From Octopus sinensis (Eukaryota), in contig NC_042999.1 of NCBI RefSeq assembly GCF_006345805.1, positions 60,946,001-61,010,000 on the forward strand: a stretch of 64,000 bases of DNA. The letters are read 5' to 3'. The translations under genes and the position numbers were made by a program. Positions within the stretch are counted from its first letter, which is position 1. Every line of letters starts with the position of its first letter. Shown here in pieces: positions 12,270 through 46,723 of this stretch. Below the pieces are notes generated by a model that was not told where the DNA came from, did no database searches, and was given only the letters and a program-made list of their open reading frames with translations.

Positions 12270-13200
12270 TCATTGTTCGAAGAAAATGGCTCGCCAATTG
12301 CAGACCCCAGAGATTCAGTGAAATACTGAATGGGTTATACAATAGTGTTTCCACAAATCTCTAGGCGAATAACTATGCTTGATGAGTTCTTCGGCACCAT
12401 AGTTCTACACAAATAAATGGTAATAATTGATAGCATCAAAATAGAAGAAACAGATATGATATCAGCCATTGATCAAATTATCTCAAACTCAGTCACATGC
12501 CCCAAAGAAACGAAAGGGAGCTCTAGAAAGACCCCTTCAGATACACTTCCAGAGCTTCCTTGCAGCAAGAAGACATCCCAGTTAAAGGACGTAATATATC
12601 CTATCGATATGGGAGGTAGCAGAGCAGATAGTAACAATTATAGACTTGTCTCTCTAACCTCCCATGACAACAAAGTCATGGAACGCATTATCAGGAAGAA
12701 AGTGATCGCGTTTCTTGAAGATAATGACTTGTTCCTTAATAACAAACATGGCTTCTGCCCAGGGAGAATTGCCTTACCTAGCTTTTGCAGAATTATGACT
12801 GGGTTTTGAAACAATTAACGAATCGCCCAAACGTGGATGTGATATATATCTCAATTCTGAAAAAGCCTTTGCTACGGATAGTCATGGGATGGTGTCCCAC
12901 AAGCTACCGACACTCGGTCTAACTGGGGAACTGGGAGTGTAGTTGCATGATTTCTTGAAAGACAGAAGTTTGTGGAGTGCCTCAGGGAATTGTATTACTC
13001 TTTCAGACATACCATCAGTTACACAGATATCTACACTTACTAGATATGCCGACGATATAAAAGTTGCAGTAGTAGTCATGGAAACTTCTGATGCTAATCT
13101 AGAGAAAGACCAAGATCTTATATATATATATATATAAAGGGGCTAAAGCAAGCAATATGCAATTTAATACAGGTAAACTCCAAGCCCTCTGATAGCAATT
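12270..13200 (+). mobile_element. CR1/Jockey-group LINE reverse transcriptase relic
   Basis: PIDMGGSRADSNNYRLVSLTS...VMERIIRKKVIAFLEDNDLFLNNKHGFCPGR, VDVIYLNSEKAF, HDFLKDR, YADDIK; frameshifted and internally deleted. Confidence 0.88.
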
Positions 13201-13306
13201 AAACCACGACAAAAAAGGATCGCATGTCCAAAAGGAAAAGGCGATCCCTTTTGTAAAAATCGCAAAAACGTGAAAATCAGACTAAGTTGGGATTTCATTG
13301 AAAGAT

Positions 13307-13372
<66 letters not shown>

Positions 13373-13819
13373 GTAAAATATAGGATAGTGAGTTTATTTC
13401 AGAAATTTCACTACCAGTGGCCTAGAATGTATAAAAAGTCAATAGATTACATATTCTCAATATAAAATATTGTACATTTAAACACAAGAGACAACTGCCT
13501 TCAGCAGGCAGTCTTTATACCCTAGACGAATTAGTCAAAACGCCCAAAACCACATTTAAGACTAATCTTGAAAAGGAATGAAAAAAAATGTTGAAGGCAG
13601 TTTTCGCTTGTGTTTAAATGCACACTATTTTATATTGAGAATATGTTGTCTATTGACTTTTAATACATGCTAGGCCACTGGTAGTGAAATTAATAAAAAA
13701 AACTCACTACCCTATATTTTACGTATATTTAGCAAGTTTTTTAAATATTAATGCGGCATTTATTCCTTTTCTGCTGACTGAAACTGCGCTTGTGTGGTGG
13801 ATGTTAAAATTATAATGTA

Positions 13820-14923
13820 CTAGCAGTATCGCCCGGCGTTGCTCGGGTTTGTAAGGGAAATAACTATATAAGCATTTTTAGTGAGTAATAGCAAAAAATG
13901 CATTAAAAATGGAATAAAAGATGATGGTAATTTTTTTTTAAATTGTTGACTCATCGTACACATTTTTAGAGAGTTACTTCCCTTATATAATAGCGAAAAA
14001 TGCATTAAAATGGAATAAAAAATGATGGTAATTTTTTTTTTAATCGTTGACTCATCGTAGACATTTTTAGAGAGTTACTTCCCTTATATAATAGCGAAAA
14101 ATGCATTAAAATGGAATAAAAAATGATGGTAATTTTTTTTTAATCGTTGACTCATCGTAGACATTTTTAGAGAGTTACTTCCCTTATATAATAGCGAAAA
14201 ATGCATTAAAATGGAATAAAAAGTTATGGTAATTTTTTTTTTAAATCGTAGACTCATCGTAGACGCGCGATAATACCCAGAAGGGCTCGATATGAATCAC
14301 GACTATAAGATACCCGGTTTTGGTTAAACTGCACCGCAAAATGTGGGAGTAGTTAGGAATCTAAATCGTAGGAGACAGACACACAAGCTTACTTTTATAT
14401 ATAAAGATTTGTGCAACAACTAAAACAATCGGTTGTGAAAATTGTTTGCACAGGAAACCTGCCCTGTGTTGCGGTAATTGCCGTTTTTGTGGATCTGTTT
14501 CAGCTTTTTTAGCGATTTCTGTTTTGGCGACTTCAAGCCATGAAGTCGTTGTTCTAAAAGAACGCTGGTCTCCTTGACAACGCATTACGACGTTGATTTC
14601 CTTACACTCCCTTCCCCACAGCTTCACGAGGGAGGGAAGAAGGGGGAGAAGCAACACAGGTGCAGATGTGAGCGTGTACGCCAACTCCGCCGCCATCGAC
14701 ACACGAAAAAATATGCATTAAAATGAAATAAAAAATGATGTTAAATTATTTTTAAAATCGTAGTCTCATCGTAGACGCGCGCTAATACTCAGACGGGCTC
14801 GATATGAATCACGACTATAAGATACCCGAATTTGGTTAAACTGCACCGCAAAATGTGGGAGTAGTTAGGAATCAAAATCGAAGGGGACAGACACTCACAC
14901 AACTACAGTTTTATATATATAGA
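13820..14923 (-). mobile_element. Non-autonomous Helitron (compound, two 5' ends)
   Basis: Minus: 5' TCTATATATATAAAACTG, 3' hairpin CCCGAGCAACGCCGGG then CGATACTGCTAG; inserted between A and T, no TSD; second TC start at 14407. Confidence 0.88.
13873..14261. repeat. ~101-bp tandem minisatellite (~3.8 copies) inside the Helitron
   Basis: GC(G/A)AAAAATGCATTAAAA recurs at 13891, 13993, 14094, 14194. Confidence 0.9.
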
Positions 14924-14976
14924 TAACGATGAGACACGTATTATTCATCTCTTAATTACATGTTAGTGTTATGGCG

Positions 14977-15032
14977 CGCTCACTGATGAGAAATTCACCT
15001 GCTAAAAAATATTTGAAACCTAGGTCTGACCG
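14977..15032 (+). ncRNA. Type I minimal hammerhead ribozyme motif (stem II decayed)
   Basis: CGCTCA-CTGATGA-G...-GAAAC-CTAG-GTC|TGACCG; stem I 5 of 6 bp, palindromic stem III ACCTAGGT, GUC triplet. Confidence 0.7.
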
Positions 15033-15189
15033 GAATAAAATAACAAGGTAATTTTTTACAATTTTCAAGATTTTGAAGATTGCCCTTAAACGTGGTTTTG
15101 GTCGTTTTGACTACTTCTAGCGTGTAAAAGCTGCCTGTTGAAGGCATTTTTCTCTTGTGTTTTAATTTACATTATTTTATATATATATA

Positions 15190-16257
<1,068 letters not shown>

Positions 16258-45993: not shown

Positions 45994-46376
45994 TCTCTCT
46001 CTATATAAACGGCAGTTTGTCTGTGCGTGTTTCTGTGTGTCTGTTTTCTTGTACCCTCACCCTGACCACGGCTTTCAACCGATTCTGATGAAACTTGACA
46101 CACACATAGCCCAATGTCATAATTCAAAACTAACGCAGCGAAAATTTTGAAAAGTTCCCCCAGTTCTGAAAAAAATCGATAAATTCGACATGGGGTCGAG
46201 AATCAGAAACACAAACCGCAAACTGTCTAGGGGACGCAACTCCACCTTTTTTAACTAAAAAAAAATTTACCATCATTTTTTTCCATCTTTTTGCTATTTT
46301 TTTGGCTATAACTCTCTAAAAATGCTTTATAGTTATTTCCCTTACAAACCTGAGCAACGCCGGGCGATACTGCTAG
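45994..46376 (+). mobile_element. Non-autonomous Helitron
   Basis: A|TCTCTCTCTATATAAACGGC...CCTGAGCAACGCCGGGCGATACTGCTAG|T; last ~120 bp shared with the 13820-14923 element. Confidence 0.88.
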
Positions 46377-46723
46377 TATATCTATATCTACGTTATGCAG
46401 TTTATACCTGATTTTACTACAAACTTTTAGGTTTTATGAGATATCTCTGTTATTTCAAGAAGGTCGAACGGAAAGGAAGGGCTAACTCTTTGACTCATAA
46501 CATCAAGTGTATACACATGGGATCCAACGGTGTAAACTTACTTACACAGTACCCCCATTAGAGAATCGGGCAGTAATTCACGGACATACTCATTGGACAT
46601 AGATACACATATATATGTACATATTACCGTGTTTGATACGATAAGAAAAGAATGCATAAAACCGAACACTGCCATACAAATGGGAACAAATTATGCATGT
46701 ACATACAATATATATGTTTGAAC

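What the first reader, a model, noticed from the sequence alone, without database searches (positions are those of the whole stretch)
13366..15180. Reconstructable ~443-nt terminally redundant hammerhead unit (retrozyme-like), split by a Helitron
Seen: removing the Helitron joins 13589-13819 to 14924-15180. The joined sequence starts and ends with the same ~45-nt segment (TGTTGAAGGCA...TATTTTAT), implying a ~443-nt monomer, with CTGATGA...GAAAC-CTAG-GTC and a paired stem I. An inverted segment (13366-13572) precedes it and spans the monomer junction, so the template was circular or multimeric. No ORF; TA tracts on both sides. Established: Penelope insertions give partial tandems with inverted leading pieces, and animal non-LTR retrozymes are short HHR-bearing repeats that make circular RNA. 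Inference: a non-autonomous retrozyme family, or a solo pLTR, mobilised by Penelope RT.
Basis: partly seen in the sequence, partly recalled or inferred. Interest (0 to 1): 0.75.

Follow-up and report, generated by a model that had tools for sequence, protein, structure and literature searches.

The report
Old hammerhead retrozyme, Penelope-style two-armed insertion
This is one old, Helitron-interrupted copy of an abundant protein-free 469-base repeat with a predicted self-cutting hammerhead RNA motif; its copies often sit in TA microsatellites as two back-to-back arms that end at two different fixed points, so it was likely copied from both ends of a DNA break by a borrowed Penelope-type retrotransposon enzyme, possibly from a circular RNA.

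Summary
Observation confirmed. 13820-14923 is a Helitron (minus strand, A|TC...CTAG|T); 24 of 27 other copies run through that site uninterrupted. The unit is a dispersed, ORF-less 469-nt repeat (443 nt here through deletions), probably about 2,000 arms, with a type I hammerhead whose stem I covaries between subfamilies. This copy's ribozyme is damaged. In 155 insertions, 3' ends pile up 160 (S) and 243-254 (L) nt after the predicted cut and usually abut (TA)n. All 75 inverted pairs face outward; of 44 with both ends classed, 39 are S+L, 5 S+S, 0 L+L. In 18 of 34 S+L pairs each arm holds sequence the other lacks, so fold-back copying fails and priming from both DNA ends fits. No copy continues into a shared coding 3' region: it is not a solo pLTR. 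Three sister families obey the same rule; a young one has a five-unit arm and locus-private variants shared by repeats and arms. Verdict: non-autonomous Penelope-mobilised retrozyme-type element. Circular RNA, cleavage and the driver element are not shown. The scan found this kind before on other DNA, including this genome.

The parts
13305..13365 (.). (TA)n tract at the left end; likely insertion target
   Evidence: TRF 13305-13371; 111 of 180 outer S/L ends abut (TA)n against 308 of 5000 random places
13364..13588 (-). Inverted arm, unit positions 32-254, ending at the long (L) fixed site; 5' end meets the forward arm with no gap
   Evidence: 207 of 228 aligned bases match the family consensus
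13589..13819 (+). Forward arm, first part, unit positions 114-349
   Evidence: 212 of 229
13589..13635 (+). First copy of the 47-nt overlap (unit 114-160); second copy 15136-15182
   Evidence: 87% identity
13680..13711 (+). Predicted hairpin just before the L site
   Evidence: 7 pairs, 88-94% paired in 117-121 arms; one pair A-U 76 / G-C 15 / G-U 18
13820..14923 (-). Non-autonomous Helitron, later insertion: TC start, 3' hairpin, CTAG end, A|T target, no duplication; a second TC start at about 14408 (13820-14408 is the length shared with other copies)
13886..14264 (.). 101-bp minisatellite (3.7 copies) inside the Helitron
14924..15182 (+). Forward arm, second part, unit positions 350-469 then 1-160, ending at the short (S) fixed site
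   Evidence: 236 of 259
14977..15032 (+). Type I hammerhead motif, predicted cut after 15026; palindromic minimal stem III; damaged in this copy (stem I mismatch, 17-nt stem II deletion)
15126..15151 (+). Predicted hairpin upstream of the S site
   Evidence: 9 pairs, 82-97% paired; G-C 78 / A-U 67 / G-U 24 and C-G 97 / U-G 58 / U-A 16 at two pairs
15183..15189 (.). Short TA run at the right end
   Evidence: read

Best explanation
This is a decayed copy of a protein-free 469-nt repeat with a predicted hammerhead ribozyme that was likely mobilised in trans by a Penelope-like (probably Neptune-clade) reverse transcriptase-endonuclease, which would cut both strands of a (TA)n tract and prime cDNA from each DNA end at a different fixed internal site of the RNA; a Helitron later landed in it. 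Steps: (1) shown: ORF-less unit that closes on itself, dispersed copies, variable 5' ends, two fixed 3' ends 160 and 243-254 nt after the predicted cut, TA flanks. (2) shown: inverted pairs always face outward and pair one S with one L end far above chance; the arms overlap in sequence but usually neither contains the other. (3) inferred: both ends of a double-strand cut prime reverse transcription, one at S and one at L, on the same RNA or the same source transcript; the two cDNA 3' ends are then joined head to head with little or no gap. (4) inferred: the template is longer than one unit at the point of copying, either a ligated circle made by hammerhead cleavage (my odds about 55%) or an uncut multimer. 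(5) inferred: hairpins before S and L are the enzyme's recognition sites. (6) not found: the coding partner.
For: 3' ends: 60 of 241 arms at exactly position 160 and 40 at 254, 5' ends spread. 75 outward pairs and no inward pair among 155 insertions; S+L 39, S+S 5, L+L 0 of 44 classed (expected 21.7/13.6/8.6; 0 of 200,000 permutations reach it); 21/3/0 in the 80 insertions picked by an exact motif. S arm runs further 5' than the L arm in 21 of 34 clean pairs, in 18 without holding the L tail. Arm junction gaps are within 8 nt in 54 of 69 pairs. Arms of one locus are more alike than arms of different loci (0.904 vs 0.867, n=52, Wilcoxon 2.5e-9). 127 of 241 arms cross the hammerhead site; 111 of 123 align across it with no missing column. 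Stem I pair C-G 57 / U-A 32 with the triplet GUC/GUA by subfamily. Sister families B (492 nt), E (479 nt), G (540 nt) keep the geometry: S+L in 9 of 9, 13 of 13 and 14 of 14 classed clean pairs. In young family G one arm is 2,726 nt (5 units), and variants seen at one locus only occur in both repeats and in both arms. GIY-YIG PLE ORFs with the CxxC motif abound, some intact. Three insertions are direct joins of the unit to coding PLE pieces on the same strand. A purified PLE protein cuts and extends both strands of AT-rich DNA, starts at two internal RNA sites and is modelled as a dimer (PMC11167929).
Against: No coding element with this unit as its repeat was found in 79 PLE loci, so the driver is inferred from insertion anatomy. 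31 of 75 inverted pairs have at least one end away from S and L, and 5 are S+S. The E and G queries forced one arm to be long, so those counts test only the partner arm. S and L lie 94 nt apart, against the 30-40 nt tail described for PLEs. S and L are themselves TA-like, so part of the 'fixed end' could be pairing with the target, whereas the in vitro PLE start site was not homologous to the cut DNA. Family A has no long arrays in the sample: longest old arm 744 nt, and the one 1,073-nt arm is a recent 99.6% duplication. Covariation counts reflect a few subfamily-level events. The three chimeras involve two different coding families and could be deletions between neighbours. In vitro, hammerhead cleavage was not needed for PLE insertion (PMC11167929).
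Confidence: 0.8

Rival explanations
1. Same enzyme and two-ended priming, but the template is an uncut, longer-than-unit linear transcript (or a linear monomer with end-to-end jumps); no circle is involved and the hammerhead is idle during insertion.
For: Partial tandems that could give such transcripts are common (39 of 241 arms exceed 469 nt). Hammerhead mutants still inserted in vitro (PMC11167929). Only one of nine frog retrozyme dimers cleaved in vitro (10.64898/2026.07.22.740005). Some family A arms stop 6-20 nt after the cut site (10 of 44 at risk, binomial p=0.025).
Against: Sources long enough are rare in family A, yet three old arms cross the site twice. Junctions across the site are seamless. 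Locus-private variants repeat in both laps and both arms in family G. The ribozyme and its pairing are kept across families that are only about 65% alike. The stop signal is weak (Fisher p=0.13) and absent from family G.
Confidence: 0.35
2. The inverted arm is made by fold-back self-priming of the first cDNA (or an antisense template), and the short end is an endonuclease cut that resolves the hairpin.
For: Proposed for head-to-head PLE structures in PMC3846280 (passage); explains one long and one short end and the similarity of the two arms.
Against: A fold-back copy must lie inside the first arm; in 18 of 34 pairs each arm has sequence the other lacks.
Confidence: 0.08
3. The copies are 5'-truncated ends or solo pLTRs of a coding Penelope-like element.
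For: Coding PLEs with their own hammerheads are abundant here; three copies adjoin PLE coding sequence; only a small share of about 5,000 endonuclease candidates was examined.
Against: The unit closes on itself; the 5' flanks of 76 single arms share nothing beyond three short pairwise hits; 0 of 29 copies of the family joined at L198/L207 carry the unit; the young 781-aa family ends in a different sequence.
Confidence: 0.07
4. A DNA-level repeat (satellite or inverted-repeat DNA transposon) with a chance ribozyme-like motif.
For: Inverted ends and TA flanks recall Tc1/mariner MITEs (recalled); Rfam finds nothing.
Against: Half the insertions have one arm only; arm lengths and 5' ends vary freely; the two outer ends differ; strand-specific G-U pairs and compensatory changes point to RNA structure.
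Confidence: 0.02

Closest known systems
Metazoan non-LTR retrozymes (PMC7229834: passages and Discussion read; bioRxiv 10.64898/2026.07.22.740005: parts 1-3 of 5 read, supplements not seen)
   Same: ORF-less, AT-rich (32% GC), few-hundred-base unit with a type I hammerhead, head-to-tail closure, co-occurring with PLEs; PLE mobilisation proposed in both papers.
   Different: Family A is mostly dispersed insertions of 0.1-1.6 units per arm rather than arrays; it shows PLE-type insertion anatomy (fixed internal ends, TA target, head-to-head arms), which the parts I read do not describe; no circular RNA shown; no homologous coding pLTR found.
EN+ Penelope-like elements, Neptune/Poseidon/Naiad insertion anatomy (PMC8557442 and PMC3846280: passages; PMC11167929: main text read)
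   Same: 5' truncation, partial tandem, adjacent inverted truncated copy, a tail on only one end, microsatellite or AT-rich targets, two internal start sites downstream of a hammerhead.
   Different: No ORF; tail of about 94 nt instead of 30-40; start sites 160 and about 250 nt after the cut.
PLE-associated minimal hammerheads acting as dimers (PMC4209133: passages)
   Same: Type I, long helix II, 1-2 bp helix III with palindromic loop, covarying families within one genome.
   Different: Six-pair helix I as in canonical motifs; sits in a closed non-coding unit, not in the repeat of a coding element.
Non-autonomous Chlamys PLEs such as MRC1 (PMC8557442: passage)
   Same: Non-coding PLE derivatives with pLTR-like and head-to-tail insertions.
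   Different: Green algae, N-terminal endonuclease clade described as lacking canonical hammerheads; those share 3' ends with autonomous families, which was not found here.

Membership tests
Metazoan non-LTR retrozyme | Type I hammerhead in each unit | tested here: met
   Motif and stem I covariation in about 90 arms; no Rfam match; damaged in the window copy
Metazoan non-LTR retrozyme | Short non-coding unit, low GC, no LTR/PBS/PPT architecture | tested here: met
   469 nt, 32% GC, longest ATG frame 30 codons; PBS/PPT not searched separately
Metazoan non-LTR retrozyme | Head-to-tail tandem with at least two complete ribozyme units | tested here: inconclusive
   Family A: 39 of 241 arms exceed one unit, 4 cross the site twice, only one holds two whole units and it is a recent duplication. 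Homologous family G has a 5-unit arm
Metazoan non-LTR retrozyme | Self-cleavage of the transcript | not testable with these tools
   needs an in vitro assay
Metazoan non-LTR retrozyme | Abundant monomeric circular RNA | not testable with these tools
   only contigs of runs guessed to be RNA were available
Penelope-like element (non-autonomous) | Fixed 3' ends with optional tail, variable 5' truncation | tested here: met
Penelope-like element (non-autonomous) | Adjacent inverted truncated copy, tail on one end only | tested here: met
   75 outward pairs; 39 of 44 classed are S+L
Penelope-like element (non-autonomous) | AT-rich or microsatellite target | tested here: met
   111 of 180 against 308 of 5000
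Penelope-like element (non-autonomous) | Sequence shared with the terminal repeat of a coding PLE | tested here: inconclusive
   none in 79 PLE loci, a small part of about 5,000 candidates
Penelope-like element (autonomous) or its solo pLTR | RT-GIY-YIG ORF upstream of the repeat | tested here: not met
   146 loci searched; 3 direct joins at unrelated points, no shared coding 3' region
Helitron (insert 13820-14923) | 5' TC, 3' CTRR, subterminal hairpin, A|T target, no duplication, other copies with the same ends | tested here: met

The most novel reading that the evidence does not exclude
A superfamily of ORF-less hammerhead RNA circles (at least four families, 469-540 nt) parasitises PLE enzymes, and each two-armed insertion records a dimeric enzyme priming both ends of one break on one RNA circle at two different hairpin-marked sites. 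This would explain the head-to-head, one-tail anatomy of all PLEs without self-priming and would tie animal retrozymes to PLE machinery by footprint.
Probability: 0.45. Interest if true: 0.65.

Novelty: new member of a known kind. Interest (0 to 1): 0.45.

Why it matters
Two open points meet here. Papers on animal retrozymes propose PLEs as the mover but rest on co-occurrence and repeat similarity; the insertion footprint is more direct. And the origin of the inverted, one-tailed PLE end is unsettled; the S+L exclusion and the non-nested arms give a counted constraint that favours priming from both DNA ends and names exact RNA positions to test in an existing in vitro assay. The window copy itself is an old, broken member; the young family G is the one to test.

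Tried and rejected
Rfam: no hammerhead family at gathering or E<=10. Search for RNA: no RNA holder listed; contigs of runs guessed to be RNA cover families A and G, some joining across the unit start, but contigs cannot show ends, strand, level or circles, and genomic tandems give the same joints: no weight given. Driver search: profile of A, then A+B, over 79 PLE loci gave only TA-separated neighbours. The repeat next to the young 781-aa PLE looked like its pLTR but is another closed ORF-less unit, family E. The PLE family joined to the unit at L198 and L207 has its own repeat. In one search, 28 of 35 loci with a protein hit came from a common non-PLE repeat inside one query and were dropped; two query ORFs were not PLE proteins. 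The flank-enrichment test failed because the library held unrelated repeats (9 of 74 against 31 of 205), so the chimeras have no valid background rate. The 1,073-nt arm L048 was rejected as evidence of rolling copying (99.6% identical units in an old family). Pile-up of 5' ends after the cut site: weak, post hoc, open to alignment creep in an A-rich stretch, not seen in family G. A vs E similarity is marginal (only the first 254 nt, score 126 against 85.5+-11). Target duplications cannot be read in TA tracts. Literature searches gave no paper on such a family in cephalopods or counting S+L pairs; subscription journals and Repbase/Dfam were not searchable, so the family may be catalogued there.

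Full report
Observation. The region reads (TA)n, an inverted arm (13364-13588), a forward arm (13589-13819), a 1,104-nt insert, the rest of the forward arm (14924-15182) and a short TA run. The insert is a Helitron on the minus strand: TC start, 3' hairpin, CTAG end, placed between A and T with no duplication; its 3' end recurs, always before T, at 9 other places in the loci held. It holds a 101-bp minisatellite and a second TC start near 14408. Of 27 distinct other loci from the first genome search, 24 cross the insertion point uninterrupted, two begin at or after it, and one has a different repeat inserted at the same base.

The family. The window is part of a 2.72-Gb animal genome (probably a cephalopod, a guess from size and repeat content, not tested). 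The two halves gave 950 and 2,062 first-look candidates; an exact 22-mer occurs 337 times against one control hit, which at about 90% identity implies some 2,000 arms or more (inference). The consensus monomer is 469 nt, 32% GC, with no ATG frame over 30 codons. I number it from the base after the predicted cut. The window's forward arm is 114>469>160 and its inverted arm 32>254, each 91-93% identical to consensus, so this is an old copy.

The ribozyme. The family has a six-pair stem I, a CUGAUGA core, a long stem II, GAAA and a palindromic minimal stem III. A second subfamily changes one stem I pair from C-G to U-A together with GUC to GUA (57 and 32 of 103 arms). Two further hairpins, before positions 160 and 254, also covary. 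These counts come from few subfamily events. The window copy has a stem I mismatch and a 17-nt stem II deletion, and its stem II does not fold, so it is probably dead. Rfam finds nothing. A palindromic short helix III is described as typical of metazoan and PLE hammerheads that work as dimers (PMC4209133, passages).

Insertion anatomy. In 155 distinct insertions (241 arms), 5' ends are spread while 3' ends pile up at 160 (60 arms exactly; class S 155-180) and 254 (40 exactly; class L 240-262). 111 of 180 outer S/L ends abut (TA)n, against 18 of 76 single-arm 5' ends and 308 of 5000 random places. 76 insertions have one arm, 75 are outward-facing inverted structures, 4 are same-strand pieces, none faces inward. 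Of the 75, 44 have both ends classed: 39 S+L, 5 S+S, 0 L+L, against 21.7, 13.6 and 8.6 expected; 31 have an end elsewhere. The 80 insertions picked by exact motif give 21, 3, 0. In 21 of 34 clean two-arm S+L pairs the S arm reaches further 5' than the L arm, and in 18 of these it lacks the L tail, so neither arm is a copy of the other (two of the 34 are a near-identical local duplicate). The arms of one locus are more alike than arms of different loci, which may partly reflect shared subfamily and age.

Not a pLTR. 127 arms cross the hammerhead site, 39 exceed one unit, and three old arms cross it twice. No shared upstream sequence appears in 76 single-arm flanks. The genome is rich in GIY-YIG PLEs (5,029 candidates, 150 scored), with a CxxC motif before the nuclease as described for Neptune and Nematis (PMC8557442, passage), and intact RT plus GIY-YIG frames of 775-781 codons. 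A profile of the unit found no attached copy in 79 PLE loci. Three insertions join the unit directly to PLE coding or 3' sequence on the same strand (L198, L207, L111), from two coding families that have their own terminal repeats. They fit template switching but have no valid background rate.

Sister families. B (492 nt) is homologous to A throughout (score 306 against 157+-13 for shuffles), G (540 nt) too (210 against 139.5+-12.5), E (479 nt) only marginally. All end about 160-175 and 245-270 nt after their own predicted cut. Classed clean inverted pairs are S+L in 9 of 9 (25 loci), 13 of 13 (28 loci) and 14 of 14 (20 distinct loci); the E and G queries favoured a long main arm. G is young (97-99%), has an arm of 5 units whose repeats are 98% alike, and has variants confined to one locus that stand in both repeats of one arm and in the opposite arm (L337: two sites; also L324, L325, L332, L339). 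One template read more than once is the simplest reading, though a homogenised source array would look the same.

Mechanism. A purified lizard PLE protein cuts and extends both strands of AT-rich DNA, starts at two internal sites downstream of its hammerhead, is modelled as a dimer, and does not need ribozyme cleavage (PMC11167929, main text). The anatomy here is what that chemistry would leave if each DNA end primed at a different site. An earlier proposal of self-priming for head-to-head PLE ends (PMC3846280, passage) predicts nested arms and fails in over half the pairs. Whether the template is a circle or an uncut multimer is open; I put the circle at about 55%.

Comparison and novelty. 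It works like a non-autonomous PLE and looks like an animal non-LTR retrozyme. PLE mobilisation of retrozymes is proposed in PMC7229834 (Discussion) and argued from distribution and pLTR similarity in 10.64898/2026.07.22.740005 (supplements not seen and may list related families). A tail on one of two inverted repeats is known for PLEs. PMC8969392 (passages) gives the same general anatomy. My eight searches found no paper on this family or a count of the S+L rule. After this analysis I looked up the scan's earlier notes: several describe the same kind of element and the same two-site rule in this and other genomes (one search found nothing by sequence). They agree but are not independent proof.

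Verdict. Real and correctly reconstructed; a new member of a known kind, with a useful mechanistic footprint. Interest 0.45.

Noticed in passing
G000:C3:52354900-52358400 (L308) and L318-L342: Young 540-nt hammerhead family G, homologous to the finding's unit, 1,934 first-look candidates, five-unit arm; best target for RNA tests.
   Followed up: partly
L133-L157 and L278-L307: Families B (492 nt) and E (479 nt) of ORF-less hammerhead units with the same two end sites; E has a different stem III loop and arms up to 849 nt.
   Followed up: partly
window:36414-36890: Decayed relative of the unit between TA tracts with a short inverted piece (profile E 2.6e-6).
   Followed up: no
window:13819/13820 and L022:1790-1978: Two unrelated elements (this Helitron, and a short common repeat in L022) interrupt the unit at the same base, about 60 nt upstream of the ribozyme; L002 also begins there. 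Possible insertion hotspot.
   Followed up: no
L198:1388-2700, L207:641-1561, L111:1050-1650: Direct same-strand joins between the unit and coding PLE pieces; candidate template-switch products.
   Followed up: partly
loci listed: At least nine further hammerhead-bearing repeat types ending in TA tracts among the fetched loci; some are ends of coding PLEs.
   Followed up: no
L117-L120: Neptune-like PLEs with an extra upstream open frame (280-479 codons) overlapping the RT-endonuclease frame; many near-intact copies.
   Followed up: no
window:6656-7056; 12500-13300; 15440-16000; 46258-46381: PLE endonuclease remnant; LINE reverse transcriptase remnant and mariner transposase remnant (both recognised by recalled motifs, not tested); 3' part of another copy of the Helitron.
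   Followed up: no
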